Shown piece by piece: positions 4,054 to 26,105 of a stretch of DNA of 64,000 nucleotides. The stretch covers positions 673-64,672 of the forward strand of contig VGKG01000003.1 in NCBI GenBank assembly GCA_016867115.1. Reading direction: 5' to 3'. The stretch comes from Candidatus Omnitrophota bacterium. GTDB lineage: Bacteria; Omnitrophota; Gorgyraeia; Gygaellales; Profunditerraquicolaceae. A program made the position numbers and the translations under genes. How positions within the stretch are numbered: the first letter of the stretch is position 1; each line of letters opens with the position of its first letter. The notes beneath the pieces are model-generated. The model worked only from the letters and a program-made list of their open reading frames with translations, was not told the origin of the DNA and searched no databases.

Positions 4054-4060
4054 AAGGCGA

Positions 4061-9697: not shown

Positions 9698-9735
9698 TCT
9701 TTTGTTCACGCCTCAAAAATTTTGCGAAAAATCCC

Positions 9736-9763
9736 TTGACAGCACCGCTTAAATAGGTATAAT
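9736..9763 (+). promoter_or_regulatory. sigma70-type promoter (TTGACA-16 nt-TATAAT) upstream of the PKS-like operon
   Basis: Consensus hexamers read directly (TTGACA 9736-9741, TATAAT 9758-9763), about 50 nt upstream of the first ORF at 9812. Confidence 0.5.
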
Positions 9764-9811
9764 ATATTAAAATTTAATTAGTAAAATTTTACTATACGGA
9801 GGTTCCAGCTG

Positions 9812-10078
9812 ATGCAGTGGGAGAATAATACCGCACAAAGATTTCAGACGATGATCGCCAAGATCCCGGTTTTTCACCGCCACATCACCGAACAGGCAGT
9901 AGTGCGCCGGGCCCAGGAGATCGCCGCAAAGCGTAAGGCCAGCCAGATTGAAGAAGAGGATGTCATCGCCGCCTTCTTTTCGGATGTCCCCTCGCCCTTT
10001 TACAGCATGATGGTCAGGCTATTGGAGCAAAACGGTTTTGACTACAAGAAGTACGGCTTTCCCAGGAATAACAAATAA
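9812..10078 (+). CDS. small PCP_red-domain-like protein (protochlorophyllide reductase 57 kD subunit-like motif)
   Basis: W-x3-A-x2-R-x3-IAKIPVFHRHITEQAVVRRAQEIAAKRKASQIEEEDV fits the PF08369-like pattern. SD GGAGG upstream. Confidence 0.45.
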   Translation: MQWENNTAQRFQTMIAKIPVFHRHITEQAVVRRAQEIAAKRKASQIEEEDVIAAFFSDVPSPFYSMMVRLLEQNGFDYKKYGFPRNNK

Positions 10079-10084
10079 TCTACG

Positions 10085-11089
10085 ATGAAGATCGCGGTTA
10101 TCGGAGCAGGCGCAATCGGCGCCTTGGTTGCAGGGTATCTTAAAGCAAAAGATGCGGATGTATCTTTGGTGGCGCGGCCGGATTCTTTAGCCGTAATTAA
10201 GGATCAGGGGCTTGCGGTCTCCGGGGTAAGAGGAGACTTAAAGGTCAAGATCAGCGCTGAGCAGGCCTTAAGTTACCAGCCGGAACTGGTAATTTTAGCT
10301 ACCAAGACCCAGGACCTAGAGAACGCCCTGAAGCAGAATTTAAATTTCCTTAAGGATGCCACAATCTTGACTACACAAAACGGCGTAGCTGCAGACGGCA
10401 TAGTCGCCAGATACCTTCCGGAAGAAAAAATCATTTCTAGTATTGTCATGTTCGGCGCCACGCTCCTTGAGCCGGTAAGGATCGTGCATAATTTTGAGGG
10501 GAGCTGGATCATGGGGAGCGCTTTTGGCCAAAACGACGCCGAAGTCGTCAGGATAAGCGAGGTACTTAACCGCGCCTTTCCGACAATCGTCGCCGAAGAT
10601 ATCCGGGGGATGAAATACCTGAAGATCTTTGTGAACGCCAATAACTGCATCCCGGCGATATTAGGCACCAGCATGCAGGAGGCCTTTAGCAACCCCCGGA
10701 TCAGCCGGATCAGTATCGCTATCTGGAAGGAAGGCCTGGATATCGTAGGCAGATCCGGGATCAGCCTGACCTCTTTGCCGGATTTTCCCCTGGAACGCCT
10801 GACCGCCCTGGCCGCGCTGCCACTGGATGAGGCGGCTAAGATCTTTTCCGGCATCATGAGCAATTTAAGCAAAGAGCCGCTTTATGGCTCTATCCTCCAG
10901 AGCATCAAGAGAGGCAGGACTTCAGAAATAGATTACATTAACGGCGAGTTCAGCCGGCTGGCCGAGACGCAGAATTTAGCAGCGCCTTTAAATAAAAAAT
11001 TAGTGGAGATGGTGCACAGCGTCGAGCAGAATAAGAAGTTTTTCACGCCGGATGAGCTGGTCAGCTCAACCCGCGAGCTGATAAATTAA
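10085..11089 (+). CDS. ApbA/PanE-family 2-dehydropantoate 2-reductase-like NAD(P)H oxidoreductase
   Basis: N-terminal Rossmann MKIAVIGAGAIGALVAGYL. 334 aa. Ketopantoate-reductase family architecture. Confidence 0.75.
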   Translation: MKIAVIGAGAIGALVAGYLKAKDADVSLVARPDSLAVIKDQGLAVSGVRGDLKVKISAEQALSYQPELVILATKTQDLENALKQNLNFLKDATILTTQNGVAADGIVARYLPEEKIISSIVMFGATLLEPVRIVHNFEGSWIMGSAFGQNDAEVVRISEVLNRAFPTIVAEDIRGMKYLKIFVNANNCIPAILGTSMQEAFSNPRISRISIAIWKEGLDIVGRSGISLTSLPDFPLERLTALAALPLDEAAKIFSGIMSNLSKEPLYGSILQSIKRGRTSEIDYINGEFSRLAETQNLAAPLNKKLVEMVHSVEQNKKFFTPDELVSSTRELIN

Positions 11090-11098
11090 GGAGTAAAG

Positions 11099-11698
11099 AT
11101 GATCAAATCACCTTTTCCCAAGTTAAAATTGACTGTCATGAATGTTTACGGGCCCTGTTATCACGGCTACAAGGTGGGCGATGAACTGATCCTGGATGAT
11201 TTTACCCACGGCCCTAAATATTTTTGTCTGGGCCTGGCGCATGCGCTCTTTCCCGTAGCCTATGCCTTAAGTTTCGGGGCAAAGTTCCCTTTCCGGGACA
11301 ACCAGCGTTCGTTACTGGTCACCTGTCCTGACGGAGGCAAGCTTGAGTTTAAAGCCGAGGTCCTGGATAAGGAGAGGGATGTCGAAAACGTGCCTAAGGA
11401 CCCTGAACACAGGGGCCCGAACCCCAAGAAGATGATCATTGAGGTGGTCAAGGCAAAAGGAAAATGCACCTTCGGCTATAAAGTCGGCGATAAGTGGGAG
11501 ACGCAAGGATTAAAATGCATCCCCGGATTTTGCGGAGCGGCGTTTCACACCGCGTTCCCTGCGCTCTTTGCCCTGAATTTCGGGGCGAAGTTTTTCTTTA
11601 TGCAGGATCCGGATTCTATCGATACAGTCACCTGCCCCGACGGAGGGAATATCATATTTAAGGTAACGCGGGCAAAAGAAGAGGCCAAGGAGAAATAG
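11099..11698 (+). CDS. TIGR04076-family protein, tandemly duplicated domain
   Basis: Two homologous halves, each with C-x-x-G-YKVGD ... C ... A(H/F)xxFP..AL.FGAKF.F ... CPDGG..FK. Compare FCLGLAHALFPVAYALSFGAKFPF...TCPDGG with FCGAAFHTAFPALFALNFGAKFFF...TCPDGG. Confidence 0.6.
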   Translation: MIKSPFPKLKLTVMNVYGPCYHGYKVGDELILDDFTHGPKYFCLGLAHALFPVAYALSFGAKFPFRDNQRSLLVTCPDGGKLEFKAEVLDKERDVENVPKDPEHRGPNPKKMIIEVVKAKGKCTFGYKVGDKWETQGLKCIPGFCGAAFHTAFPALFALNFGAKFFFMQDPDSIDTVTCPDGGNIIFKVTRAKEEAKEK

Positions 11699-11701
11699 TC
11701 A

Positions 11702-12964
11702 ATGCAAAAACGTAGAGTAGTGATCACTGGGATAGGCGTAATCTCGCCTAACGGTATCGGCAAGCCCGCCGTCTATCAGGCGATGATCTCCGGTGTGTCC
11801 GGGGTGAAGCGGGTGGACGGTTTTGATGTCTCCATATTTAATACCAAGATTGCTGCCGAGGCGCGCGATTTTGACCCCTTTAAGCTGGGCCTCACCCACG
11901 AAGAAGTGATGCGTATGGACCGCTACGTGCAGTTCGGCGTGGTGGCTGGCGATATGGCCATAAAGGATAGCGGCCTGGATTTTTCAAAAGAAGACCCCGA
12001 GCGCATCGGCGTCTGCCTGGCTAACGCCATCTGCGGCACCAAATACATGGAAGAGGAGTTCGCCCTGGTTACTGACGACGGCAAGAAACCGATCGACCCC
12101 TCAAAGGTGCGGCCTGATCTTTACGATGCGGCGATGTTCAATACGCCCTCAATTGAGATCAGCGCGCGTTACGGTTTTAAGGGTATCTGCGATACTCTCT
12201 CCACGGGTTGCACTGCCGGAACGGATTCTCTGGGGTTTGGCCTTGAGACGATCCAGGACGGCGAGCAAGATGTCATGATCTGCGGCGCTGCCGAAGCGCC
12301 GATCACTCCGATCACTTTTGGCGCCTTTGACGTGGTAAGTGTTCTTTCAGTGCGTAACGATACTCCGGAAGCGGCATCACGACCATTTGATAACCGGCGC
12401 GACGGTTTTGTCCTCTCCGAAGGCGCGGGGATCCTGGTCCTTGAAGAACTGGATCATGCCCTGAAACGCAATGCCCGCATTTATTGCGAGGTCCTCGGCT
12501 TTGGCACCAGCTGCAACGCCTTCCACATGACTGACCTTCCTTCTGACGGAGGGGCGATGGTAAGTTGCATCAGCCTCGGCTTGAAAGACGCAGGGGTTAA
12601 GCCGGATGAGGTCGATTATATCAGCGCCCACGGCTCATCCACCAGGATGAACGACATCTTTGAGACCAATGCCTACAAGACGATCTTCGGCGAGTATGCC
12701 TATAAGCTGCCGATCAGTTCTCTTAAGTCCATGATCGGACATCCCCTGGCCGCGGCTAACGCCGTGGAGATGACTGTCTGTGCGATGATCTTCCAGAAGG
12801 ATATCCTTCCTCCGACGATAAACCAGGAGGAGAAAGACCCTTTATGCGATCTGGATTATATCCCAAACTCAGCCCGGAAACAGAAGGTAAACACAATACT
12901 TAAGACCTCAAGCGGATTTTCGGGGATACATTCCTCACTTATATTAAGGAGATACAATGGGTAA
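11702..12964 (+). CDS. beta-ketoacyl synthase (KS-alpha / FabF-like) with intact Cys-His-His triad
   Basis: ITGIGVISP N-terminus, active-site TGCTAG, AHGSSTRMND and SMIGHPLAAA histidines. Confidence 0.85.
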   Translation: MQKRRVVITGIGVISPNGIGKPAVYQAMISGVSGVKRVDGFDVSIFNTKIAAEARDFDPFKLGLTHEEVMRMDRYVQFGVVAGDMAIKDSGLDFSKEDPERIGVCLANAICGTKYMEEEFALVTDDGKKPIDPSKVRPDLYDAAMFNTPSIEISARYGFKGICDTLSTGCTAGTDSLGFGLETIQDGEQDVMICGAAEAPITPITFGAFDVVSVLSVRNDTPEAASRPFDNRRDGFVLSEGAGILVLEELDHALKRNARIYCEVLGFGTSCNAFHMTDLPSDGGAMVSCISLGLKDAGVKPDEVDYISAHGSSTRMNDIFETNAYKTIFGEYAYKLPISSLKSMIGHPLAAANAVEMTVCAMIFQKDILPPTINQEEKDPLCDLDYIPNSARKQKVNTILKTSSGFSGIHSSLILRRYNG

Positions 12965-14192
12965 GCAGATCGCAGTCACCGGTATAGGCGTAGTCAGTCC
13001 TTCGGGCATAGGCAAGAGGCAGCTCTGGGCGAATATTAAATCCGGACGCCCTTTTATCAAGGAGATTACTCGTTTCGACGCTTCCAAATACCCCAGTCAC
13101 ATCGCAGGGCAAATAGATGAACTGGAAAAATATAGCAACATTTCAGAGCGGCTGCTCAAAAAGATCGACGCCTTCTCGCACATGGCCCTAATCGCTTCGG
13201 AGCTTGCCCTGCAAGATGCCGGCATTGATATTAAGAAAGAGGACCCGAACCTGGTCGGCATATTTTTAGGCAATGCCTTAGGCGGCTGGCTTTATGCCGA
13301 GACAGAGCTACGCGATATGTATATTGAAGGCCGCGAAGGGGTCTCGCCTTACATGGCCTCTGCCTGGTTTCCGGCTGCGCCACAGGGCCAGGTTTCTATT
13401 TACTACGGGATAAAGGGATTCAGCAAGACCGTAGTCGCAGACAGGGCAAGCTCCCTTATGGCCATCGGATATGCCAGAAAGGTCCTAAGCAAGGATAAAT
13501 TGAACATGATCTTAGCCGGCGGCATGGAAGCTCCGGTCACCCCCTACGCGCTTTTATGCTGCAACACCTATGGCTCTCTTTCTACGGATAATGCTCATCC
13601 ACAAGCCGCTTACCGGCCCTTTGATAAAAAACGTAGCGGCTTTGTCATTGGCGAGGGCGCGGGGATCGTCGTCATGGAAGGATTAGAGCGGGTGAGGGCA
13701 AGAGGGGCAAATATTCAGGCCCTGATCACCGGTTACGGCGCAACCTGCGACGGAATAGACAGGATCAATCCTGCTTCTGACGGGAAAGAATTAGCCCGGG
13801 CAATCCAGATAGCGCTTAGTGATGCGGGCATAGGCCCTGAGGGAATCGATTATATCAGCCTGGACGGTATTGCCGTTGGTCTCTGGGATAGCACCGAAGT
13901 AAAGGCGATCAAGAGTGTCTTCGGCAGCCGCGCTAAAGAGATACCGGTAAGCTGCCCGAAATCCATGTTCGGCAATCTCCTGGGCGCCTCCGGTGCCCTG
14001 GATATGATCATCACTATTTCGGCTATGGAAAACAGCCTTATTCCTCCGACTATCAATTTGGATGAGCCGGCAGAAACCGGCCTGAATTATATAGGTAAGG
14101 AAGCCAGACCCCATAAAATAAATAAAGCCCTGATCATCTCCCGCGGCAGAGGCGGGATCAATTCGGCTTTAGTGGTTGAGAAAGGAGCATAA
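12957..14192 (+). CDS. KS-like partner lacking the catalytic triad (chain-length-factor / KS-beta-like)
   Basis: KS fold (VTGIGVVSP...), but the Cys position reads ADRASS, AHGTxT is replaced by SLDGIAVG, and GH is replaced by GNLLGASG. An 8-nt overlap with the upstream KS points to translational coupling. Confidence 0.75.
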   Translation: MGKQIAVTGIGVVSPSGIGKRQLWANIKSGRPFIKEITRFDASKYPSHIAGQIDELEKYSNISERLLKKIDAFSHMALIASELALQDAGIDIKKEDPNLVGIFLGNALGGWLYAETELRDMYIEGREGVSPYMASAWFPAAPQGQVSIYYGIKGFSKTVVADRASSLMAIGYARKVLSKDKLNMILAGGMEAPVTPYALLCCNTYGSLSTDNAHPQAAYRPFDKKRSGFVIGEGAGIVVMEGLERVRARGANIQALITGYGATCDGIDRINPASDGKELARAIQIALSDAGIGPEGIDYISLDGIAVGLWDSTEVKAIKSVFGSRAKEIPVSCPKSMFGNLLGASGALDMIITISAMENSLIPPTINLDEPAETGLNYIGKEARPHKINKALIISRGRGGINSALVVEKGA

Positions 14193-14194
14193 GA

Positions 14195-15655
14195 ATGAAG
14201 ATTTTATTCGTCATGCCTAAAGTAGGCGCCTGGGCAACGCACGGAATCCACCGTTCACCGAACCAGTTGTATGCGCACTGGGCAGCTTATGCGCGCGAAA
14301 AAGGTTATACGGACGTCTCGGTCATCGACGGAAGGGCGCTTGAGATCCCCATGGACCAGTTGATCGAACAGGTCAAAGCCAAGAATCCGGATATCGTGGT
14401 CATGGGCGAGCAGATCCATGGTTACGGCGGCTACGGGGTCTTACGCCATTTCCGGGACGCGGCTATCGGGATCAAAAAAGTATTACCTAGAACAAAGATA
14501 ATCCTGGGCGGGCTATGGTATTCGGCGATGCCTGTGCCGACCCTGGAAGAGATCCCCGCGGTGGATTTTGTGGTCATGGGCGAAGAAGAGTCTTTCGGCG
14601 ACCTGATCGAGGCGATAGATAAGAATAAGCCTCTTAAAGATGTGGGTGGAGTCACCTCGCGCATCGACGGCTCAATCGTCATGGGGCCGCATAAGCCGCT
14701 GATGACTGACCTGGATAAACTGCCTTTACCGGCATACGACTTATTCCCCATGGATAAGTATGTGGGGCACACCTACTGGAAGCCCTTTGTAGATATGATC
14801 ACCTCGCGCGGCTGCCCTTCTGCCTGCACCTTCTGCTATGAATGGGACCAGTTTGACCCGCGCTCGCCGTCAGACTTCCTGAAATGGCGCGCAAAATCAC
14901 CGGAGAGGGTCATCGAAGAGCTGGAAGTGCTGCATAAGAAATACGGGGTAAAGGTCGTGGTGATCCAGGACGATAATTTTAACGTTGATCCTGCTAGGGT
15001 GAAGAGGTTCTGTGAGCTGAAGAAGCAGAAGAACATCCCGACTAAATGGGTCTCCTTAGGCAGGGCAGTGGACTGGGTGAATTGCGAGTCGATCCTGCCC
15101 CTAATGAAAGAAACGGGCTTGTTTATGGGAGTATTCGGGATAGAAGTCACCACACAGGATGAGCTGAAGAGGATTGCTAAAGGAACCACCATCGAGCAGA
15201 TCAAGAAGACTATCGAGATCCTGCGCCGTAACGATATCGCTATTGTCGCCGATATCATGATCGGGTTTGACTACGATACCGAGGCGATCATCAAGCAGCG
15301 CTTTGAGTTTGCTGATGCTGTGGACCCGGACGTCTTGTGGATCGGCTATGTGACTCCGGCACCCAACTCGCCGATGTGGCGCATTTCGCTAAAGAAAAAC
15401 TGGATCGATCCCAAGAAGGTGGACTTCAGCACCTGGGATTTCCTGCATCCGGTGATCCCCACGGATCATCTCACTACCGAGGAGCTGGGAAGGCTTGGCG
15501 CCTGGTGCATGCGCGAGTTCTTCTCAAAGCCGGGAAGGATCAACCGGATCATGGAGAGCAATTTTGACCCCCTGGCCAAGCTCTGTTTTCAGGATGTCAT
15601 GGCCGGAGTAGGCAAGTGGGAAGCAGCCGCCACCAAAGGCGAAGTACAGATCTAG
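14195..15655 (+). CDS. B12-binding-domain radical SAM enzyme
   Basis: N-terminal cobalamin-binding-like domain followed by a CPSACTFC (Cx3Cx2C) radical SAM cluster motif. 486 aa. Confidence 0.85.
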   Translation: MKILFVMPKVGAWATHGIHRSPNQLYAHWAAYAREKGYTDVSVIDGRALEIPMDQLIEQVKAKNPDIVVMGEQIHGYGGYGVLRHFRDAAIGIKKVLPRTKIILGGLWYSAMPVPTLEEIPAVDFVVMGEEESFGDLIEAIDKNKPLKDVGGVTSRIDGSIVMGPHKPLMTDLDKLPLPAYDLFPMDKYVGHTYWKPFVDMITSRGCPSACTFCYEWDQFDPRSPSDFLKWRAKSPERVIEELEVLHKKYGVKVVVIQDDNFNVDPARVKRFCELKKQKNIPTKWVSLGRAVDWVNCESILPLMKETGLFMGVFGIEVTTQDELKRIAKGTTIEQIKKTIEILRRNDIAIVADIMIGFDYDTEAIIKQRFEFADAVDPDVLWIGYVTPAPNSPMWRISLKKNWIDPKKVDFSTWDFLHPVIPTDHLTTEELGRLGAWCMREFFSKPGRINRIMESNFDPLAKLCFQDVMAGVGKWEAAATKGEVQI

Positions 15656-15663
15656 ACCGGTCA

Positions 15664-15732: not shown

Positions 15733-15957
15733 ATGAAAGAGAGGATCAGAGAAGTCTTAAGTAATCTCTTGAAAGTAAAACCCGAAGAGCTTAAGGACGA
15801 TGTTTCTTTACAGGATTCTATCGGCGTAGACTCGACCGAAATGGTTGAGACAGTGATTGCGCTGGAGAAGGCCTTCGGGAAGAAGTTAAGCACCAAGGAG
15901 ATCACCAAGTTCTCTTCGATAAGCGATATCGAAAAAGTAATTCAATCTAAAGCTTAG
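15733..15957 (+). CDS. acyl carrier protein
   Basis: 74 aa with the GVDSTEMVE phosphopantetheine-attachment serine motif. Confidence 0.85.
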   Translation: MKERIREVLSNLLKVKPEELKDDVSLQDSIGVDSTEMVETVIALEKAFGKKLSTKEITKFSSISDIEKVIQSKA

Positions 15958-15972
15958 GACCATATGAGACAT

Positions 15973-16046
15973 GTCGCGGGACAGATCCCGCCAGAGTTAA
16001 TACCTGCGGTACTAAGGGACCTGTCCCGACCGCGAGGAGGTACTCA
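15973..16046 (+). promoter_or_regulatory. structured 5' leader element, copy B (upstream of cyclase gene)
   Basis: Shares the identical 31-nt 3' segment CTAAGGGACCTGTCCCGACCGCGAGGAGGTA and 5' GGGACAGATCCCGCCAGA with copy A. A TTG start follows. Confidence 0.45.
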
Positions 16047-16880
16047 TTGAAGATAATCGACTTAAGCCTGCCAATCGACGACAAGGCCTTTGAGGTCCAC
16101 CGTGTGGATATTGAGCGGGTCTCACATTCGGCGGGAGTAGAAAAGTTCAATCGGGTAATCATGGGCAAGACCCTGAAGGGCAGGCTTCAGTATCTTTTAG
16201 GTAAGCGCATCCTGAAGAAAGAAGACCTTCCGGATGAGGAGTTCCTTTCTCTCGAAGTAATCCATTCTCCGGTGCACATCGGCACACACCTGGATTATTC
16301 TTTCCACTACGGCTCAAAGTCAGAGGGCCGCCCCGCCAAGACCGCGGAGGAGATCCCGCTTGAGTGGTGTTATGCTGACGGCGTGAAACTGGACCTGACG
16401 CATAAGAAGCCAAACGAAGTGGTCAAAGCCCCGGACCTGGAGCAGGCCTTAAAAATGATCAATTATACGCTTAAGCATAATGACATTGTGCTCCTGCATA
16501 CAGGTGCGGATAAACTCTTTGGTTCTGCGAGATACTTCTCTGAATACCCCGGAATAGACATTTCCGCGATAGATTATCTCTTAGACCGCGGGGTCAAGAT
16601 TTTCGGCGTGGACACCATGGGCATTGACCGGCCTTACAAGTTCATGCTTAAGGAGTTCCTGGAGGAGAAAAAGCCGCTTTATCCGGCGCACTTTTACGGA
16701 AGGAAGAGAGAGTTTATCCATATCGAGCGCCTAAGCAATCTGGATAAGCTGCCGGCAGCCGGCTTTAAAGTCATCTGTTTTCCGGTGAAGATAAAATATA
16801 CCGGCGCTGCCTGGTCCAGGGTAGTGGCAGTACTAAGCGAGATAAGCCCTGAACGCGAAATGAGCCAAAAGGAGGTTTGA
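16047..16880 (+). CDS. PF04199 'putative cyclase' family protein (kynurenine-formamidase-like fold)
   Basis: HSPVHIGTHLDYSFHYG metal-binding motif (HxGTHxDxPxH-like). TTG start directly after the leader SD. Confidence 0.7.
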   Translation: MKIIDLSLPIDDKAFEVHRVDIERVSHSAGVEKFNRVIMGKTLKGRLQYLLGKRILKKEDLPDEEFLSLEVIHSPVHIGTHLDYSFHYGSKSEGRPAKTAEEIPLEWCYADGVKLDLTHKKPNEVVKAPDLEQALKMINYTLKHNDIVLLHTGADKLFGSARYFSEYPGIDISAIDYLLDRGVKIFGVDTMGIDRPYKFMLKEFLEEKKPLYPAHFYGRKREFIHIERLSNLDKLPAAGFKVICFPVKIKYTGAAWSRVVAVLSEISPEREMSQKEV

Positions 16881-16881
16881 G

Positions 16882-17421
16882 ATGGGACATACCTGCAATT
16901 CTATTATCATCAACGCCCCTTACGACTTAGTCTTTGATATCTCAAATGACATCCCGCGCTGGACAGAATTATTCGGCACAGAATACAAAAAGGCAGAGGT
17001 ACTGGAGAAAAAAGACAATAAGATCACCTTCCGCCTCACTGATGAGGACGATAAGTCCTGGGTCTCCTGGCGCCTCCTTTTTAAAGACAAATACTTCGCC
17101 TATGCCCAGCGCCATGAACCGTTATTCCCTTTTAAATACATGAAGATTGTTTGGCTCTATACCCCTAAGCCCGAGGGTGTGGCTTTGGCTACTGCGCAGA
17201 AGCGCGTACCGGCCGGTCCGATAAGGCCGGGTGAAGGAGGCCAAACCACGGACCCCTGTCCTGTTGAGATGGCCTGGATCCAGCACTTTGAGATGGATGA
17301 GAAGGCTAAGTTCAATGACCAGCAGATCGAGGGTTTTATTAATGAAGGCTCCCGCCACAACCTGAAGATCTTTAAAGAGATCATCGAGCGGGAAGCAGCT
17401 ACGGCTAAAGTTAAGAGTTAA
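16882..17421 (+). CDS. SRPBCC-superfamily polyketide cyclase/aromatase-like protein
   Basis: 179 aa with a START/Bet v1-like N-terminal pattern (IIINAPYDLVFDISNDIPRW...), immediately downstream of the cyclase. Confidence 0.65.
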   Translation: MGHTCNSIIINAPYDLVFDISNDIPRWTELFGTEYKKAEVLEKKDNKITFRLTDEDDKSWVSWRLLFKDKYFAYAQRHEPLFPFKYMKIVWLYTPKPEGVALATAQKRVPAGPIRPGEGGQTTDPCPVEMAWIQHFEMDEKAKFNDQQIEGFINEGSRHNLKIFKEIIEREAATAKVKS

Positions 17422-17430
17422 GCGGATCTG

Positions 17431-18552
17431 GTGAAAAAAAGCACATTTCTCATCCTTTGTCTTGAAGGCGCGATCCTCTCCTTCAATGTCGCCGCAGCCG
17501 CTGCCTTAGTTCCTTCGATCGCCAGGGATTTTGCTCTTTCTCAGTTCGTGGTAGGCAAAATGATCTGGCTGTACATGTTTCCGTACGGCATAGCTGCTTT
17601 AATTTATGGTCCCCTGGTAAGGGCGATTGATGCAAAGAAGATAGAACTGGTTTGCATATTTTTCTTTTCTCTATCAAATCTTCTAGCCGCCCTATCCGGA
17701 AACATTTATACTTGTTTCATTGCCCGGTTTTTTATGGGACTTTTTGGCGCTTCAGTCATACCGCTTGGACTAGTATTAATTGCAAATCATATTGAGCAGC
17801 AGAGGCGCGGTAAGTATGTGGGGATTTTTTTTAGTGCAACCTTTGTGGCTTCGCTCTTAGGCTTATTTTTAAGTGGTATCATTTCCTGGCGACTGATTTA
17901 TCTTATCCCTGCAATTGCCGGCCTTTTTCTTACCGGTATCATTTATCTTTATCTGCCCAGTTTCAAAGGAGATGTTACGGGCTTTAAGATAAATTATTTT
18001 GCTGCCCTGGGTGATAAAAGAATGCTTTTTATCTTTGCCTATATATTTGTTATCAGCCTTCTTTATCACGGCATCCAGCAGTGGCTGGGAGTTTATTTCT
18101 CAGACAGGTTCGGCTTTAGCCAGTTTTTGATCAGCGCACTCATTACTCTGACCAGCTTAAGCGGTATTTTCGGAGAGGCCTTTGGCGGAGTGCTGGCAGA
18201 TAGGTTCGGCAGGATACGCACTGCGAATCTAGGCGTTCTTTTGATGGTTATCAGCGCATTGCTTTTGATCTTGAAGCTCCCTTTTGTTCTTCTGGCGCTG
18301 TTAATGATCGTCTGGGGTTTAGGCTGGACCTTTAATCATGCCGGGATATCTACGGTGTTGACAGACCTGCCTCGGGAGTTCTTGAATGAGGCAGCGAGTT
18401 TAAACAGCAGCGTGCGTTTTATTTCAGGCGGCGTGGGTGCTGCGCTCGGCGGAGTGCTGATGCAGAGGGGTTTTAGCGTCGGGTTTGTGGTTTTCGGCGT
18501 GAGCCTGGCCGCATTGTTATTTTTAAGCAAAACATTGGAAAGCGGGAGGTAG
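17431..18552 (+). CDS. MFS transporter
   Basis: 373 aa with about 12 TM segments and the MFS signature around GPLVRAIDAKK. Confidence 0.8.
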   Translation: MKKSTFLILCLEGAILSFNVAAAAALVPSIARDFALSQFVVGKMIWLYMFPYGIAALIYGPLVRAIDAKKIELVCIFFFSLSNLLAALSGNIYTCFIARFFMGLFGASVIPLGLVLIANHIEQQRRGKYVGIFFSATFVASLLGLFLSGIISWRLIYLIPAIAGLFLTGIIYLYLPSFKGDVTGFKINYFAALGDKRMLFIFAYIFVISLLYHGIQQWLGVYFSDRFGFSQFLISALITLTSLSGIFGEAFGGVLADRFGRIRTANLGVLLMVISALLLILKLPFVLLALLMIVWGLGWTFNHAGISTVLTDLPREFLNEAASLNSSVRFISGGVGAALGGVLMQRGFSVGFVVFGVSLAALLFLSKTLESGR

Positions 18553-18554
18553 TC

Positions 18555-19328
18555 ATGGAGGATTTAAAAGGTAAAGTAGCCATAGTCACCGGTGCCAGCC
18601 GCGGGATAGGTAAGGCGCTTGCCTCTACCGCCGCAAGTTTAGGGATTAATCTAGCCATTGCCGCGCGCCAGGAAGGGCCGTTAAAAGAGACCGCGGATGA
18701 GATCGCCAAAAAATATAAGGTCGAGGTCCTGGCTGTACCCTGCGACGTGACGAAGCTGGGTGATCTTGAGAACCTGGTCAATAAGACCAGGGAAAGATTC
18801 GGCAAAATAGATATCCTGATCAATAATGCCGGAGTCTCCAGCCAGTACCCCTTTGACAAGCAGCCGTTAGAGGACTTTGAGAAGCTGGCGCACACGAATT
18901 ACTTAGGCTATGTGCGGCTCATCCGCCTGGTGATCAACGAGATGGTCGAAAGAAAATCCGGGGCCATCATCAATATGGTCTCAGGCTCGACCCTTTGCGA
19001 TCCCCTGCCCAGGAACTTTATCGTCTATAGTTCCTTAAAGGTGGGGCTGCGAGCTTTTTCTAAAGGCCTCTTCTGGGAGCTGCGCGACCACGGGATCAAG
19101 GTCACCTCGATCCTGCCCGGGGTAACGGATACGGACCTGACCGGAAAATTAAGCGAGATCACTGCCGATGCCGGGCGCCTGATGACTACCGAGGCGATCG
19201 AGAATGCGGTGAGGTTTGCCCTGACTGTCCCGGCAAATGTCTGTCCGTTAGAGATTGCGGTGATCAACCAGCAGACGCCCTGGACTGCGCCTGTAATCCC
19301 CTATAAACAAGCTCACCCGGAGAAATAA
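18555..19328 (+). CDS. SDR-family oxidoreductase (ketoreductase-like)
   Basis: GKVAIVTGASRGIGKA (TGxxxGxG), NNAG, catalytic YSSLK. Confidence 0.85.
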   Translation: MEDLKGKVAIVTGASRGIGKALASTAASLGINLAIAARQEGPLKETADEIAKKYKVEVLAVPCDVTKLGDLENLVNKTRERFGKIDILINNAGVSSQYPFDKQPLEDFEKLAHTNYLGYVRLIRLVINEMVERKSGAIINMVSGSTLCDPLPRNFIVYSSLKVGLRAFSKGLFWELRDHGIKVTSILPGVTDTDLTGKLSEITADAGRLMTTEAIENAVRFALTVPANVCPLEIAVINQQTPWTAPVIPYKQAHPEK

Positions 19329-19330
19329 CG

Positions 19331-19750
19331 ATGGATAAGCGCGACCTGAAGAACTTAAAAAAGAGGTACCTGGTCTGGCTCTATAAGAACACCAAAGAGG
19401 CCTTTGACCGGTATGAGCGTAAGTTCACCCAGTTAGATATTGATAAGTTTATGCTCGCGGAGATGGAGAAGGAGGTAGAAAGCTCCTTCATGCCTGCCGA
19501 GCTTGAAGGAGTGGCTAAGTTTATCGAAGACTTCCGCAATTACATCGAAGAAAAAGAAAAATCCTGCCTTGAGCTCAAATATCAGGATAAGAAGATCAAT
19601 CCCGAGTTCCTTTTCCTGGATATGAAACTGAGGGCCGTAGAGAAGGCGATTCAGAGCGAGCTGGGGAGTAAAGCCCTGGATGAGATAAAGGAGCTTTACC
19701 AGCAGGAGATGCTTAAAAGGATCATGACTGAGCGCGAAGAAAAACGTTAA
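19331..19750 (+). CDS. hypothetical charged/coiled-coil protein
   Basis: 139 aa, K/E-rich, in the operon, no recognisable family. Confidence 0.4.
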   Translation: MDKRDLKNLKKRYLVWLYKNTKEAFDRYERKFTQLDIDKFMLAEMEKEVESSFMPAELEGVAKFIEDFRNYIEEKEKSCLELKYQDKKINPEFLFLDMKLRAVEKAIQSELGSKALDEIKELYQQEMLKRIMTEREEKR

Positions 19751-20562
19751 TGGCGACAACTAAAGCAGCCTATCAAATCTTTATTCTTCTTGCGCTTATC
19801 GCTGGCATCATCATGTATTTTAGATTCATTGAGCGCCGCACCCTCTTTTTCCCGGCCAAGGAGTTTGATTATACGCCGGCAGCCCTTAAGCTGGAATACG
19901 AAGAAGTAAGTTTTAAGACCAAAGATAATGTAGAGATCAATGCCTGGTTTGTTCCGGCCAGGGATGCTAAGTTTACCGTGCTCTTTGCTCACGGCAATGC
20001 CGGAAATATCAGCCACCGCGTGGAAAAGATCGATTTTTTCCATGAGTTAGGTTTGAATGTCCTGATCTTTGATTACCGGGGATATGGCAAGAGCAGGGGT
20101 TCGCCTTCTGAAAAGGGTTTATATAAAGATGCCCAGGCTTCCTATGAATATCTTTTATCGCGCGGCATTAAGCCGGATGAGATCATCGGCTACGGAGAGT
20201 CTATCGGAGGTGCGGTGATCATTGATCTTGGCTCAAGGAATAAACTGACAGCCCTGATCTCTGACAGCACGCCCAGCTCCGCAAAGGACATGGTCAGGAT
20301 CATTTATCCCTTTCTGCCTTACTGGGTGTTTTCTGTGCGCATGGACTCTTTGAGCAAGGTGAAAGCGATCCACTACCCTAAGCTTTTTATCCATAGCGTA
20401 AATGATGAGATCGTGCCTTTTAAATTAGGGAAGAAGCTTTTTGAATCCGCGCCCCTGCCTAAGGAATTCCTGCAGATCCACGGAGGGCACAACAGTTGCT
20501 TTTTTGAATCAGAGGATGTGTTAAAAGAAAAAGTCAGCGCTTTTCTAAAAGGGCTTAAATAA
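19750..20562 (+). CDS. alpha/beta hydrolase (S9/BAAT-like)
   Basis: N-terminal TM segment, HGNAG oxyanion region, GYGESIGG nucleophile elbow, C-terminal His. Confidence 0.75.
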   Translation: MATTKAAYQIFILLALIAGIIMYFRFIERRTLFFPAKEFDYTPAALKLEYEEVSFKTKDNVEINAWFVPARDAKFTVLFAHGNAGNISHRVEKIDFFHELGLNVLIFDYRGYGKSRGSPSEKGLYKDAQASYEYLLSRGIKPDEIIGYGESIGGAVIIDLGSRNKLTALISDSTPSSAKDMVRIIYPFLPYWVFSVRMDSLSKVKAIHYPKLFIHSVNDEIVPFKLGKKLFESAPLPKEFLQIHGGHNSCFFESEDVLKEKVSAFLKGLK

Positions 20563-21479
20563 TGAAGATAATCGACGCCCACAGCCATTGGCTGCCGGAT
20601 GAGATCATCAATAACGCCCATTTTTTTCATAAGGGCTGGGCAGATATTGAGGCGCAGGTCAAGGCAATGCAGGAGGCAGGCATTGACCGGGCAGTCCTGA
20701 CTTATCCTACCTCGGATGCGCACTTAAAATTAGGCAGTATCAGCCTGGTAGCCAGGATCTATAATGATAATGTCGCTAAGATCCTTAAGCGCTATCCGGA
20801 TAAGTTTATCGGTGCGGCTATTATCCCGGTGGATAACGTTACGGGCATGGTGGATGAATTGCGCCGCGCCACGGAAGAGCTGGGATTTAAGGCGCTCTCT
20901 TTAGCCTCAAGCTACAACGGCAAATACCCGGATGATGCGATATTTATGCCTCTCTATAAAGAGGCGCAAGCAAAGAATATCCCGGTCTTTGTGCATTCGC
21001 AGATCGTCAACCCCATCGGTTTTGAACGGGTCAATGACCCCCTACTTACTCCGGTAGTCGAATACATCTTTGACATGACCATGTGTATCGGCAAGCTCTT
21101 AATGGCAGATATTTTTCGGGATTATCCTCAGCTGAAATTCATCTTTGCCAATTTCGGCGGGGCTACTGCATTCTTGCAGCACCGTTTTGACGCTACTTAC
21201 AATATGCTCAGGGGCATAAACTTTGTCAAAGACTTAAAGGGCCAGCCCACGCAGTTCTTAAAGAATATTTATGTGGATACCGGAGGCGACAGGATTAAGG
21301 CTAATTTTACGCTTGCCCTTGAACTCCTCGGGCCGCAGCATATTTTATGGGGCAGCGACTGGCCGGCAAAGAAGGATGTTGCATCGGGCATCAAAGTGGT
21401 AGAGGAACTAGGATTAAGCGAGCAGGATAAAGAGAATATTTTAGGTGGGAATATAGAGAGGTTGTTTACCGTTCTTTAA
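20562..21479 (+). CDS. amidohydrolase-2 (ACMSD/LigW-type metal-dependent hydrolase/decarboxylase) family protein
   Basis: MKIIDAHSHWLPDE start with TIM-barrel amidohydrolase_2 pattern. Last gene of the operon. Confidence 0.75.
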   Translation: MKIIDAHSHWLPDEIINNAHFFHKGWADIEAQVKAMQEAGIDRAVLTYPTSDAHLKLGSISLVARIYNDNVAKILKRYPDKFIGAAIIPVDNVTGMVDELRRATEELGFKALSLASSYNGKYPDDAIFMPLYKEAQAKNIPVFVHSQIVNPIGFERVNDPLLTPVVEYIFDMTMCIGKLLMADIFRDYPQLKFIFANFGGATAFLQHRFDATYNMLRGINFVKDLKGQPTQFLKNIYVDTGGDRIKANFTLALELLGPQHILWGSDWPAKKDVASGIKVVEELGLSEQDKENILGGNIERLFTVL

Positions 21480-26092: not shown

Positions 26093-26105
26093 GTGAGGAG
26101 AGAGC

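What the first reader, a model, noticed from the sequence alone, without database searches (positions are those of the whole stretch)
9736..21479. Compact type II PKS-like operon (KS-alpha/KS-beta/ACP + two cyclases + KR + B12-radical SAM) in a diderm, non-actinobacterial context
Thirteen co-directional genes share one consensus promoter, with abutting or overlapping starts. They encode:
- a PCP_red-like small protein;
- an ApbA-family reductase;
- a duplicated TIGR04076 protein;
- a catalytic KS and a triad-less KS partner overlapping it by 8 nt;
- a B12-binding radical SAM enzyme;
- an ACP with a DSxE site;
- a PF04199 cyclase and an SRPBCC aromatase/cyclase;
- an MFS exporter and an SDR ketoreductase;
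- an alpha/beta hydrolase and an amidohydrolase-2.

This is the minimal aromatic-polyketide gene set (KS-alpha, CLF, ACP, ARO/CYC, KR) plus unusual tailoring (a cobalamin radical SAM and an ACMSD-type decarboxylase). The surrounding chromosome is clearly Gram-negative-type (TolC, LptE, LpxL, CsgG). No MCAT or PPTase is in the cluster, as is typical when FabD is borrowed. The product is unknown.
Basis: partly seen in the sequence, partly recalled or inferred. Interest (0 to 1): 0.85.

Follow-up and report, generated by a model that had tools for sequence, protein, structure and literature searches.

The report
Phylum-wide type II polyketide synthase operon
This is a real aromatic (type II) polyketide synthase gene cluster in an uncultured Omnitrophota bacterium, and it is kept almost unchanged in at least 80 species of that phylum together with a vitamin-B12 radical enzyme and a by-product recycling module, which suggests a core molecule rather than an occasional antibiotic.

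Summary
The operon is real. It has 14 co-directional ORFs (9812-21479) behind a perfect TTGACA-16-TATAAT promoter.

- KS1 falls in the KS-alpha clade (96% bootstrap). The triad-less KS2 (Arg/Asp/Asn) falls in the CLF clade (99%). Both sit apart from FabF and aryl-polyene KSs (95%).
- The SRPBCC protein is a TcmN/WhiE-type aromatase/cyclase that keeps Tyr35 and Arg69.
- The PF04199 cyclase is 43% identical to the one in a Priestia megaterium type II PKS cluster.
- No dehydratase or enoyl reductase is present.

New findings:
- The host is Candidatus Omnitrophota.
- Twelve of the 14 genes are syntenic in all 80 species genomes retrieved where flanks allow. Median identity is 80-89% for KS-alpha, CLF, rSAM and SDR, against 78% for AccA.
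- Rearranged versions exist in two deeper Omnitrophota lineages.
- The unit extends to 27602. It adds a nucleoside phosphorylase, an MtnA-like isomerase, an aldolase-SCP2 fusion, an aldehyde dehydrogenase and an acyl-CoA ligase. In lineage 2 these genes are contiguous with the rSAM and PKS genes.
- The MFS transporter and the alpha/beta hydrolase are accessory.

The product is unknown. My best guess is a short, decarboxylated, rSAM-modified phenolic polyketide.

The parts
1827..3286 (+). AccA (acetyl-CoA carboxylase carboxyltransferase alpha, 1827-2774) and a PadR-family regulator (2771-3286). Both are conserved upstream neighbours of the operon.
   Evidence: NCBIfam AccA 510 bits, above its cutoff; PadR 31 bits, below its cutoff. 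DUF212-YkuD-AccA-PadR lies directly upstream of the operon in L004 and L005 and in 25-29 further loci.
3595..9697 (+). Inserted efflux block: MarR, outer-membrane factor (OEP/TolC family), RND adaptor, AcrB-type pump, and a PG0541-family small protein.
   Evidence: Pfam and NCBIfam hits. The block is present between PadR and the operon in only a subset of loci (pg0541 column). It is absent in L004 and L005.
9736..9763 (+). Sigma-70-type promoter, TTGACA-16 nt-TATAAT.
   Evidence: 12 of 12 match, the only perfect one in 9300-24500. It lies 48 nt upstream of the first ATG, with a GGAGG ribosome-binding site.
9812..10078 (+). 88-aa DUF2621 protein with a weak PCP_red-like hit. It is always adjacent to ApbA, and it sits next to the rSAM gene in two other lineages.
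   Evidence: PF11084 E 1.6e-7; PF08369 E 0.02, sub-threshold. Synteny.
10085..11089 (+). ApbA/PanE-family NAD(P)H 2-oxoacid reductase.
   Evidence: PF02558 plus PF08546. TIGR00745 scores 176 bits against a cutoff of 141. Conserved in all three lineages.
11099..11698 (+). Tandem-duplicated TIGR04076 protein with three conserved Cys per repeat.
11702..12964 (+). KS-alpha, the catalytic ketosynthase.
   Evidence: Cys/His/Lys/His present; STGC and AHGSST motifs. Best PDB hits are act KS-alpha (381.6 bits) and AntD (368.9), then FabF (356). In the KS-alpha clade at 96% bootstrap.
12957..14192 (+). Chain-length factor (KS-beta). It lacks the catalytic triad and overlaps KS-alpha by 8 nt.
   Evidence: Arg/Asp/Lys/Asn at the Cys/His/Lys/His columns. 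In the CLF clade at 99% bootstrap, and in a subclade with the Bacillota CLFs at 97%. Arg is conserved in at least 101 of 120 and at least 113 of 120 homologues.
14195..15655 (+). Class B (cobalamin-binding) radical SAM enzyme of an uncharacterised subfamily.
   Evidence: PF02310 plus PF04055. Best named families are BchE (203 bits, cutoff 481) and HpnJ (149 bits, cutoff 578). TIGR04072 'ladderane' scores 69 bits against a cutoff of 360. Only about five 50%-identity clusters score above 260 bits among 1.8 billion representatives. Identity is 84-93% in 80 species.
15733..15957 (+). Acyl carrier protein.
   Evidence: PF00550 E 9e-11. GVDSTE serine motif.
16047..16880 (+). PF04199 'cyclase' of the metal-dependent kynurenine-formamidase fold.
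   Evidence: PF04199 E 8.5e-29. HIGTHLDYSFH motif. It is 43% and 38% identical over its full length to the cyclase genes of the P. megaterium and S. saccharolyticus type II PKS clusters.
16882..17421 (+). Single-domain TcmN/WhiE-type aromatase/cyclase (SRPBCC) with a roughly 28-residue insertion.
   Evidence: Its only significant PDB relatives (E up to 1e-10) are WhiE and TcmN ARO/CYC, at E 1e-20. TcmN Y35 and R69, and W28, F32, W65 and S67, are conserved in the printed alignment. It is 33-37% identical to SRPBCC genes in Streptomyces and Bacillota type II PKS clusters.
17431..18552 (+). MFS transporter. Accessory.
   Evidence: PF07690 E 2e-40. Present in 48 of about 70 loci that cover this position.
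18555..19328 (+). Short-chain dehydrogenase/reductase. It may be a ketoreductase or a tailoring reductase.
   Evidence: PF00106 E 1e-51. PDB hits are generic: FabG 102 bits, act KR 85 bits. Median identity is 85.5%. Absent from the L090 cluster.
19331..19750 (+). Conserved 139-aa charged protein with no family match.
   Evidence: No Pfam or NCBIfam hit. Present in 58 loci at 42-68% identity.
19750..20562 (+). Alpha/beta hydrolase with a hydrophobic N-terminus. Rare accessory gene.
   Evidence: PF12146 and PF00561. Found in only 3 of 80 related loci.
20562..21479 (+). Amidohydrolase_2 enzyme of the non-oxidative aromatic-acid decarboxylase group.
   Evidence: PF04909 E 3e-28. Best PDB relatives are LigW 5-carboxyvanillate decarboxylase (82.7 bits), ACMSD (72) and gamma-resorcylate decarboxylase (65.6). 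Conserved in all three lineages.
21739..21901 (.). Near-palindromic structured repeat in the gap between the two gene blocks. It is probably a REP/MITE-like element or a terminator.
   Evidence: RNA fold of -70.6 kcal/mol, z-score -6.3. A second copy lies at 39771-39936. There are 19 copies in 15 of 88 sequences, and most of their mid-points lie 90-100 nt after the Amidohydrolase_2 stop codon. No Rfam match.
21944..24605 (+). Nucleoside phosphorylase (21944-22693), MtnA-like 5-deoxyribose-1-P isomerase (22690-23613), and a class II aldolase fused to an SCP2 domain (23610-24605). Together they form a DHAP-shunt-like module.
   Evidence: PF01048, PF01008, and PF00596 plus PF02036. NCBIfam scores are sub-threshold except eIF-2B_rel. 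Present downstream in 41-46 loci. Contiguous with the rSAM gene in L088, L089 and L099.
24602..27602 (+). NAD(P)-dependent aldehyde dehydrogenase (24602-26092) and an acyl-CoA ligase (26106-27602).
   Evidence: PF00171 E 1e-166; PF00501 E 9e-84. The ligase is closest to the medium/long-chain fatty-acid-CoA ligase model PRK06187 (410 bits, cutoff 476). Orthologues are linked to the rSAM gene in L088, L089 and L099. The next gene (27611) is a true RlmN (376 bits, cutoff 290), which marks the end of the unit.

Best explanation
This is a genuine type II (iterative, dissociated) polyketide synthase system of the deep, non-actinobacterial branch. It is carried as a vertically inherited core trait of the phylum Omnitrophota.

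Shown:
- A KS-alpha/CLF heterodimer pair, an ACP, a TcmN/WhiE-type aromatase/cyclase and a PF04199 cyclase are encoded together.
- No dehydratase or enoyl reductase is encoded with them.
- They share an operon with a class B radical SAM enzyme and an aromatic-acid-decarboxylase-type amidohydrolase.

Inferred mechanism:
1. Malonyl units come from acetyl-CoA carboxylase (AccA is next door) and a housekeeping malonyl transferase.
2. KS-alpha/CLF condenses them on the ACP into a short poly-beta-keto chain. The bulky Trp at a CLF gate position suggests octaketide length or shorter.
3. The aromatase/cyclase and the PF04199 cyclase fold the chain into one or a few aromatic rings.
4. The SDR reduces one carbonyl.
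5. The amidohydrolase-2 removes the terminal ortho-hydroxy-aryl carboxylate.
6. The cobalamin radical SAM enzyme modifies an unactivated carbon. C-methylation is most likely. A BchE-like oxygen-independent oxidation or cyclisation is the alternative. The DUF2621, ApbA and TIGR04076 proteins may assist it as accessory or redox partners.
7. Each radical SAM turnover releases 5'-deoxyadenosine. The linked enzymes are proposed to recycle it: phosphorylase, isomerase and aldolase to DHAP plus acetaldehyde, aldehyde dehydrogenase to acetate, and acyl-CoA ligase to acetyl-CoA.

The product is probably a small phenolic or quinone-type molecule with a constitutive physiological role. In some lineages it is exported by MFS or RND pumps. 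PadR-family regulators often respond to phenolic compounds, so the PadR gene upstream is consistent with a phenolic product.
For: - KS phylogeny and active-site columns.
- PDB ranking of KS1: act KS-alpha and AntD score above FabF.
- ARO/CYC homology with catalytic residues conserved.
- Cyclase orthology with Bacillota type II PKS clusters.
- Decarboxylase relatives of the amidohydrolase-2.
- No dehydratase or enoyl-reductase domain in any operon gene.
- Gate residue Trp where act CLF has Phe and a spore-pigment CLF has Gly.
- The rSAM gene sits between the CLF and ACP genes and is the most conserved protein of the set.
- The same gene set is kept in three divergent Omnitrophota lineages despite rearrangement.
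- The phosphorylase-isomerase-aldolase-ALDH-ligase genes are contiguous with the rSAM gene in lineage 2 and in L089, and lie downstream in 41-46 lineage-1 loci.
- Median identity is 80-89% for KS-alpha, CLF, rSAM and SDR, against 78% for AccA in the same loci.
- A perfect consensus promoter.
Against: - No product is known, and nothing here is experimental.
- The tree is neighbour-joining on 27 sequences with few FabF references and no Omnitrophota housekeeping FabF. KS2's top PDB hits by score are FabFs (294 bits against 259 for act CLF).
- The CLF has Arg, not the Gln that actinobacterial CLFs use for decarboxylative priming.
- The SDR is not specifically KR-like and is missing from the L090 cluster.
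- The rSAM is far below every named family's cutoff, so its chemistry is a guess.
- The nucleoside phosphorylase is closer to uridine/DeoD-type phosphorylases than to MTA phosphorylase. The aldolase also carries an unexplained SCP2 lipid-binding domain. The 'salvage' reading of the downstream block is therefore inferred.
- The 80 loci were selected by rSAM similarity, which inflates the apparent conservation of the rSAM.
Confidence: 0.6

Rival explanations
1. The chemistry is the same (an aromatic type II polyketide), but the product is a conventional exported secondary metabolite. It would be a toxin or antibiotic used by these ultra-small, possibly predatory or host-dependent cells against hosts or competitors, not an internal core metabolite.
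For: - An MFS exporter lies inside the operon in about two thirds of loci.
- A MarR-regulated TolC/RND/AcrB efflux block is inserted directly upstream in the window and in a subset of loci.
- A PadR regulator lies upstream.
- As far as I know, type II PKS products characterised so far are pigments or antibiotics.
Against: - The exporters are the non-conserved parts.
- The biosynthetic genes are as conserved as AccA across 80 species and occur in three deep lineages. Weaponry BGCs usually show patchy distribution and rapid diversification.
- The cluster sits among housekeeping genes.
Confidence: 0.2
2. The downstream 'salvage' genes are biosynthetic. The radical SAM enzyme would attach the 5'-deoxyadenosyl group to the polyketide, as HpnH and MqnE do for hopanoids and futalosine.

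The proposed steps are:
1. The phosphorylase removes adenine.
2. The isomerase and the SCP2-fused aldolase trim the ribose. This leaves a two-carbon aldehyde arm.
3. The aldehyde dehydrogenase oxidises the arm.
4. The ligase activates it.
For: - The aldolase carries a lipid-binding SCP2 domain that I am not aware of in described DHAP-shunt aldolases. The fusion also appears in L089, and the orthologues in the other lineages are similarly long.
- The phosphorylase has weak similarity to HpnG (53 bits) and to futalosine hydrolase (27.6 bits).
- The rSAM's second-best named family is HpnJ.
- In lineage 2 all of these genes lie in one contiguous operon ahead of the rSAM gene.
- The ligase resembles medium/long-chain acyl-CoA ligases, not acetyl-CoA synthetase.
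Against: - Known adenosylating rSAM enzymes (HpnH, MqnE) lack a cobalamin domain. Class B enzymes characterised so far are mostly methyltransferases. Both points rest on my own knowledge.
- All similarity scores to Hpn and Mqn families are far below their cutoffs.
- Plain 5'-deoxyadenosine salvage explains the same gene set more simply.
Confidence: 0.1
3. The operon is a lipid pathway, not an aromatic polyketide pathway. The KS pair would build or modify an unusual fatty-acyl chain (ladderane-like, branched or polyene), and the rSAM would methylate or cross-link it.
For: - Both KS proteins score well against FabF models: 457 and 379 bits to TIGR03150.
- KS2's best PDB hits are FabFs.
- antiSMASH 'ladderane' calls have been reported in Omnitrophota MAGs (PMC9902471).
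- B12-rSAM enzymes act in several lipid pathways.
- The cluster is highly conserved across the phylum.
Against: - The KS pair groups with KS-alpha/CLF, not with FabF or aryl-polyene KSs (95-99% bootstrap).
- The ladderane-associated rSAM model TIGR04072 scores 69 bits against a cutoff of 360.
- No dehydratase or enoyl reductase is present.
- A TcmN-type aromatase with intact catalytic residues and an aromatic-acid decarboxylase have no role in saturated-lipid synthesis.
Confidence: 0.07

Closest known systems
Bacillota plasmid type II PKS clusters (Priestia megaterium YC4-R4 plasmid NZ_CP026738, Staphylococcus saccharolyticus p13T0028). Both are uncharacterised.
   Same: - Nearest sampled KS-alpha clade, together with AntD (93% bootstrap), and nearest CLF clade (97%).
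- The CLF has Arg at the former Cys position and Trp at the gate column.
- A PF04199 cyclase (43% and 38% identical) lies next to a single-domain SRPBCC aromatase (34% and 30% identical).
- An AMP-binding ligase and an alpha/beta hydrolase are present.

   Different: - The Bacillota clusters have class I SAM methyltransferases, cupin, ferritin-like and CMD-family proteins, and in one case a salicylate synthase.
- They have no B12 radical SAM, DUF2621, ApbA, TIGR04076, amidohydrolase-2 or nucleoside-salvage genes.
- They are plasmid-borne and sporadic, not phylum-wide.
Photorhabdus anthraquinone AQ-256 synthase (AntA-I; AntD/AntE structure 6SMO)
   Same: - It is a Gram-negative type II PKS.
- KS1 is 43% identical to AntD (368.9 bits) and shares the C-terminal SSGFSGIHS motif and AHGSST.
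- It falls in the same non-actinobacterial KS-alpha subclade.

   Different: - The Ant cluster has its own PPTase, CoA ligase and chain-shortening hydrolase. That gene content is from my own knowledge and was not tested here.
- It has no radical SAM enzyme or decarboxylase of this type.
- AntE (its CLF) was not compared.
Actinobacterial aromatic type II PKSs (act, tcm, whiE and spore-pigment types)
   Same: - KS-alpha/CLF/ACP architecture with overlapping KS genes.
- Asp replaces the first His in the CLF.
- A TcmN/WhiE single-domain aromatase/cyclase with Y35 and R69.

   Different: - Only about 44% (KS-alpha) and about 36% (CLF) identity.
- CLF has Arg in place of Gln or Glu.
- There are no TcmI, cupin or ABM oxygenase partners. 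Tailoring is oxygen-independent in type (rSAM, decarboxylase).
- The cluster is a conserved core trait, not a strain-specific BGC.
Ladderane-type and 'lipid biosynthesis' B12 radical SAM clusters (TIGR04072; Kuenenia and Desulfotalea, Rattray 2009)
   Same: Divergent KS paralogues without canonical active-site residues sit next to a B12-binding radical SAM enzyme in an anaerobe.
   Different: - The rSAM scores 69 bits to TIGR04072 against a cutoff of 360.
- The KS pair is KS-alpha/CLF, not FabF-like.
- The window cluster has aromatase, cyclase and decarboxylase genes where those clusters have FAS II dehydratase/reductase and desaturase-like genes.
DHAP shunt for 5'-deoxyadenosine and MTA salvage (phosphorylase or kinase, MtnA-type isomerase, class II aldolase)
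   Same: A PNP_UDP_1 phosphorylase, an IF-2B/MtnA-family isomerase and a class II aldolase lie in a row.
   Different: - Here the genes are physically tied to one particular radical SAM enzyme and to a PKS.
- The aldolase is fused to SCP2.
- The phosphorylase is uridine/DeoD-like rather than MTAP-like.
- An ALDH and an acyl-CoA ligase follow.
BchE (anaerobic Mg-protoporphyrin monomethyl ester cyclase) and HpnJ
   Same: These are the best-scoring named families for the rSAM, aligned over nearly its whole length (203 and 149 bits). Both have the B12-binding plus radical SAM architecture.
   Different: Scores are far below the equivalog cutoffs (481 and 578). No tetrapyrrole or hopanoid genes are nearby.

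Membership tests
Type II (aromatic) polyketide synthase | KS-alpha with a Cys-His-His catalytic triad that groups with KS-alpha rather than FabF | tested here: met
   C/H/K/H columns and the STGC and AHGSST motifs. KS-alpha clade at 96% bootstrap, and the type II PKS clade separates from FabF and aryl-polyene KSs at 95%. Top PDB hits are act KS-alpha and AntD.
Type II (aromatic) polyketide synthase | An adjacent KS-beta/CLF that lacks the active-site Cys and groups with CLFs | tested here: met
   R/D/K/N at the catalytic columns. The 8-nt overlap with KS-alpha suggests translational coupling. CLF clade at 99% bootstrap.
Type II (aromatic) polyketide synthase | A conserved Gln at the former Cys position of the CLF (decarboxylative priming in actinobacterial systems) | tested here: not met
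   The position is Arg, as in the Priestia and Staphylococcus CLFs. One Streptomyces spore-pigment CLF in the sample has Glu. Arg is conserved across homologues. This feature defines the actinobacterial subgroup, not every sampled CLF.
Type II (aromatic) polyketide synthase | A discrete ACP with a phosphopantetheine-attachment serine | tested here: met
   PF00550 E 9e-11. GVDSTE motif.
Type II (aromatic) polyketide synthase | A dedicated aromatase/cyclase of the SRPBCC (TcmN/WhiE) type with its catalytic Tyr and Arg | tested here: met
   E 1e-20 to WhiE and TcmN, with no other significant PDB relative. Y35 and R69 equivalents are conserved.
Type II (aromatic) polyketide synthase | No iterative dehydratase or enoyl reductase, so the chain stays poly-beta-keto | tested here: met
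   No hot-dog dehydratase or enoyl-reductase domain in any of the 14 operon ORFs or the 5 downstream ORFs. Three small proteins with no known fold remain unassigned.
Type II (aromatic) polyketide synthase | Production of an aromatic polyketide | not testable with these tools
   This needs heterologous expression or in vitro reconstitution.
Ladderane-type lipid cluster (TIGR04072 rSAM) | The rSAM is a member of TIGR04072, alongside FabF-like KS paralogues | tested here: not met
   69 bits against a cutoff of 360. The KS pair is not FabF-like.
Aryl-polyene synthase | The KS pair groups with ApeO/ApeC-type KSs, and a dehydratase and KR are present | tested here: not met
   The E. coli CFT073 aryl-polyene KSs form a separate clade outside FabF plus the type II PKSs. 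No dehydratase is present.
BchE anaerobic cyclase | Score above the TIGR02026 equivalog cutoff, and a tetrapyrrole context | tested here: not met
   203 bits against a cutoff of 481. No bch or chl genes in the window.
DHAP shunt (5'-deoxyadenosine/MTA salvage) | Nucleoside phosphorylase or nucleosidase-kinase, then MtnA-type isomerase, then class II aldolase, all acting on 5-deoxypentoses | tested here: inconclusive
   All three fold families are present in the right order. The isomerase passes only the broad eIF-2B_rel model (192 bits, cutoff 186). The phosphorylase and aldolase fall below all equivalog cutoffs. Substrates are untested.
2-dehydropantoate 2-reductase (PanE/ApbA) | Score above the TIGR00745 subfamily cutoff | tested here: met
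   176.4 bits against a cutoff of 141.35, but below all equivalog models. It is therefore a member of the broad subfamily. True PanE function is not shown.

The most novel reading that the evidence does not exclude
The operon makes a polyketide-derived, non-isoprenoid redox cofactor (a phenol or quinone) entirely without molecular oxygen.
- The BchE-like cobalamin radical SAM enzyme, with its DUF2621, ApbA and TIGR04076 partners, would install the methyl or oxygen functions that aerobes add with oxygenases.
- The molecule would serve as a core electron carrier or protective compound of Omnitrophota.
- This would explain why the cluster is as conserved as AccA in a phylum with streamlined genomes.
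- Published surveys find canonical quinone pathways incomplete or absent in many lineages of this phylum (PMC10066038).
Probability: 0.1. Interest if true: 0.9.

Novelty: new variant of a known kind. Interest (0 to 1): 0.7.

Why it matters
Type II polyketide synthases are mostly known as strain-specific antibiotic and pigment factories of actinomycetes. Here one is a fixed, strongly conserved feature of an entire uncultured phylum of very small, mostly anaerobic bacteria. It is wired to a cobalamin radical SAM enzyme and to a module that probably recycles that enzyme's by-product.

If this holds, three things follow:
- It points to an aromatic polyketide with a housekeeping or lifestyle-defining role.
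- It points to an oxygen-free tailoring route for aromatic polyketides.
- It provides a deep-branching KS-alpha/CLF pair (CLF with Arg, not Gln) for studying how these enzymes arose from fatty-acid synthases.

The gene set is compact enough to be synthesised and expressed, so the question can be tested directly. A published catalogue lists Candidatus Omnitrophica among phyla with KS-CLF hits (PMC10132072). In the library searched, I found no description of this gene set, its conservation or the linked module.

Tried and rejected
- **Ladderane or lipid reading.** Rejected on rSAM family score, KS phylogeny and the aromatase.
- **Aryl-polyene and plain FAS II readings.** Rejected by the tree.
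- **BchE or HpnJ membership.** Rejected by scores.
- **Riboswitch in the 464-nt gap before the phosphorylase gene.** No Rfam match at gathering or permissive thresholds. The strong hairpin there is a dispersed palindromic repeat.
- **82-aa ORF at 21479-21727.** It is not conserved in related loci and is probably not a gene.
- **Distribution outside the phylum.** Not resolved:
  - An eight-sequence rSAM alignment was too diverse for the genome scan.
  - The four-sequence version returned only Omnitrophota among its best 80 loci. 544 candidate relatives were reported, but those beyond the top 80 were not inspected.
  - Some records titled 'uncultured Planctomycetales' or 'Deltaproteobacteria' carry the same operon at 87-90% rSAM identity. 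I read these as bin labels, not real hosts.
- **The divergent L088-type version.** I first hoped this came from another phylum. It is also Omnitrophota.
- **Catalogue paper supplements.** The supplements held here do not list the Omnitrophica entries.
- **Look-up of the window's LeuRS.** Found nothing.
- **85-89-aa ORF between KS and CLF in lineage 2.** It is not a TIGR04076 copy.
- **CLF gate-residue reading of chain length.** An extrapolation from actinobacterial work and only suggestive.

Full report
**What is there.**

On the + strand, 14 ORFs run from 9812 to 21479. Their junctions range from an 8-nt overlap to a 9-nt gap, except for gaps of 77 and 89 nt on either side of the ACP gene. 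A perfect sigma-70 consensus (TTGACA, 16 nt, TATAAT) lies at 9736-9763. It is the only 12/12 match in 15 kb, and a GGAGG follows just before the first ATG.

Pfam and NCBIfam give the following order:
1. DUF2621 (88 aa)
2. ApbA/PanE reductase
3. A protein made of two TIGR04076 copies
4. Ketosynthase (KS1)
5. Ketosynthase (KS2)
6. A B12-binding radical SAM enzyme
7. ACP
8. A PF04199 'cyclase'
9. An SRPBCC protein
10. An MFS transporter
11. An SDR
13. An alpha/beta hydrolase
14. An Amidohydrolase_2 enzyme

The surrounding chromosome is that of a diderm. It encodes TolC-family OEP, AcrB, LptE, a lipid A acyltransferase, CsgG, Lnt, MurJ and SecA.

**Whose genome.**

KS2 is 100% identical to a protein of a 'Candidatus Omnitrophica' MAG. 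The same operon lies on JGI metagenome contigs.

**Is it a type II PKS?**

I assembled these references:
- act KS-alpha and CLF, AntD, and Bacillus and Listeria FabF, taken from PDB alignments.
- Three Streptomyces KS-alpha/CLF pairs and two Bacillota pairs from annotated plasmids.
- E. coli FabF, FabB and the two CFT073 aryl-polyene KSs.

In the alignment, KS1 has the Cys/His/Lys/His set. It also has the STGC and AHGSST motifs of KS-alpha, where FabF has (A/T)AC and AHGTST. KS2 has Arg, Asp, Lys and Asn at those columns, in the context VVADRASS / ISLDG / PKSMFGN. This resembles the CLF patterns VAEQAGG / FADG / PKTxxGR. Arg at the Cys position is shared with the Priestia and Staphylococcus CLFs.

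A neighbour-joining tree (405 columns, 200 bootstraps, rooted on FabB) gives these supports:

| Grouping | Bootstrap |
|---|---|
| KS-alpha plus CLF, separate from FabF and aryl-polyene KSs | 95% |
| KS1 within KS-alpha | 96% |
| KS1 with AntD and the Bacillota KSs | 93% |
| KS2 within CLF | 99% |
| KS2 with the Bacillota CLFs | 97% |

The SRPBCC protein has no significant PDB relative other than the WhiE and TcmN aromatase/cyclases (E 1e-20). The printed alignment shows TcmN W28, F32, Y35, W65, S67 and R69 conserved. That Y35 and R69 are the catalytic residues comes from the literature as I recall it. The protein also has a roughly 28-residue insertion.

The PF04199 protein is 43% identical over 272 residues to the cyclase-family gene that sits next to the SRPBCC gene in the Priestia type II PKS cluster. 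It is 38% identical to the Staphylococcus one.

The Amidohydrolase_2 enzyme is closest to LigW, ACMSD and gamma-resorcylate decarboxylases. No gene has a dehydratase or enoyl-reductase domain. Both refutation conditions therefore fail, and the type II PKS reading stands.

Three points weaken it:
- KS2's highest PDB scores are to FabFs.
- The tree is small and distance-based.
- The SDR is not specifically KR-like.

**Conservation.**

A scan of one genome per GTDB species with an rSAM alignment returned 544 candidate relatives. The best 80 carry rSAM proteins 84-93% identical to the window's. Nearly all are titled Omnitrophota or Omnitrophica. The rest have bin labels such as 'uncultured Planctomycetales'.

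I ran tblastn with every window protein against these loci. Wherever the contig reaches far enough, 12 genes are present and collinear: DUF2621, ApbA, TIGR04076x2, KS-alpha, CLF, rSAM, ACP, cyclase, ARO/CYC, SDR, the 139-aa protein and Amidohydrolase_2. MFS is present in roughly two thirds of loci. The alpha/beta hydrolase is present in 3.

Median identities across these loci:

| Protein | Median identity |
|---|---|
| rSAM | 88.6% |
| SDR | 85.5% |
| TIGR04076x2 | 82.4% |
| KS-alpha | 82.1% |
| CLF | 80.0% |
| AccA (same loci) | 78.0% |
| DUF212 (same loci) | 68% |
| YkuD (same loci) | 61% |

The rSAM figure is inflated because the loci were chosen by rSAM similarity. The other figures are not.

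Two deeper versions exist:
- **Lineage 2** (L088, L099; CLF 62% identical). One contiguous operon reads: acyl-CoA ligase, nucleoside phosphorylase, IF-2B isomerase, aldolase, ALDH, rSAM, DUF2621, ApbA, a DUF4440-like protein, KS, a small ORF, CLF, ACP, cyclase, ARO/CYC, MFS, SDR, PC4, Amidohydrolase_2. All of its named relatives are Omnitrophota.
- **L090** (Omnitrophota GCA_040753015.1). This locus has two B12-rSAM genes and no SDR.

The rSAM subfamily itself is narrow. Among 1.8 billion 50%-identity representatives, only about five full-length clusters score above 260 bits before scores fall to generic BchE-like levels.

**The unit is larger than reported.**

In the window the operon is followed by a 464-nt gap. 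Then come these genes:
- PNP_UDP_1 phosphorylase (21944-22693)
- IF-2B/MtnA-like isomerase (22690-23613)
- Class II aldolase with a C-terminal SCP2 domain (23610-24605)
- Aldehyde dehydrogenase (24602-26092)
- Acyl-CoA ligase (26106-27602)

A bona fide RlmN follows, which marks the end of the unit. The first three genes lie downstream of the operon in 41-46 lineage-1 loci, and the aldehyde dehydrogenase in 21. All five are contiguous with the rSAM gene in lineage 2 and in L089. The first three match the enzyme types of the DHAP shunt, which salvages 5'-deoxyadenosine, the by-product of radical SAM enzymes. That pathway description is established knowledge and was not tested here.

Upstream, AccA and a PadR regulator are conserved neighbours. 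In the window a MarR/TolC/RND efflux block has been inserted between PadR and the operon.

**How it most likely works.**

Shown: the gene content, the family placements and the conserved linkage.

Inferred:
1. KS-alpha/CLF plus ACP build a short unreduced chain. Trp occupies a CLF gate column where act has Phe and a spore-pigment CLF has Gly. This hints at octaketide length or shorter.
2. The ARO/CYC and the PF04199 cyclase aromatise the chain.
3. The decarboxylase removes the terminal carboxylate.
4. The SDR and the rSAM tailor the product.
5. 5'-deoxyadenosine is recycled through DHAP plus acetaldehyde, then acetate, to acetyl-CoA.

The biological role is open too. Conservation at the level of AccA, the housekeeping neighbourhood and the consensus promoter all argue for a core metabolite. 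The variable exporters leave room for an exported effector.

**Literature.**

A 2023 catalogue lists Candidatus Omnitrophica among 14 phyla with KS-CLF hits, in a poorly understood non-actinobacterial clade (PMC10132072). A Cariaco Basin study reports antiSMASH 'ladderane' calls in Omnitrophota (PMC9902471). The main Omnitrophota genomics paper does not mention polyketides. It notes incomplete or absent quinone pathways in several classes (PMC10066038). Searches for Omnitrophota with ketosynthase, for TIGR04076, and for CLF with B12 radical SAM found nothing relevant.

**Verdict.**

- The type II PKS interpretation is supported.
- The system is a new variant of a known kind. It has a deep-branching type II PKS core with a fixed radical SAM and salvage-like extension, and it is conserved across a phylum.
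- The product and role remain unknown.

Noticed in passing
window 21739-21901 and 39771-39936; also L017, L026, L029, L038, L040, L047, L054, L069, L074, L077, L079, L081, L024: This is a near-palindromic repeat of about 150 nt that folds into a long hairpin (-70.6 kcal/mol, z -6.3). There are 19 copies in 15 of 88 Omnitrophota sequences. Most copies have their mid-point about 90-100 nt after the Amidohydrolase_2 stop codon. Some lie between operon genes, and one pair is in tandem. No Rfam family matches. It looks like a REP/MITE-like element or a shared terminator.
   Followed up: partly
window 23610-24605; L089 12281-13270: The class II aldolase of the salvage-like module is fused to a C-terminal SCP2 lipid-binding domain. 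The fusion is also seen in L089, and the orthologues in the other lineages are similarly long. I am not aware of this fusion in described DHAP-shunt aldolases. It is unexplained.
   Followed up: partly
window 3595-9697: A MarR regulator plus an OEP/RND-adaptor/AcrB/PG0541 efflux system is inserted between the conserved PadR gene and the operon. It is present in the window and a subset of related loci, and absent in L004 and L005.
   Followed up: partly
L090 12370-21446: In a divergent Omnitrophota MAG the cluster has a second B12-rSAM gene. It is followed by a molybdenum hydroxylase (FAD, 2Fe-2S and MoCo subunits), XdhC and molybdopterin biosynthesis genes. These could be linked to oxygen-independent hydroxylation.
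   Followed up: no
L089 6491-7222: A UbiE-family methyltransferase and an acyl-CoA ligase lie directly upstream of a 45%-identical rSAM plus salvage module, on a contig that ends before any KS gene could be seen.
   Followed up: no
proteins P0127, P0130, P0131, P0217, P0267: The rSAM representative search lists giant proteins of about 2000-2600 residues. Each has two to five B12-radical-SAM-like stretches, 26-28% identical to the window enzyme.
   Followed up: no
L088 9634-9981; L004 16316-16924; L089 5778-6374: A MamF/MmsF-family small membrane protein lies next to the rSAM gene in lineage 2. A roughly 200-aa CBM_11-like protein recurs inside or beside the cluster in two otherwise different loci.
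   Followed up: no
window 29298-29380 (-) and 29524-29596 (+): Two tRNA genes lie just downstream of the GDSL lipase gene. They mark a break between the conserved block and the following housekeeping genes.
   Followed up: no
window 21479-21727: This 82-aa ORF overlaps the Amidohydrolase_2 stop codon. It has no family match and is not conserved in related loci, so it is probably not a gene.
   Followed up: yes
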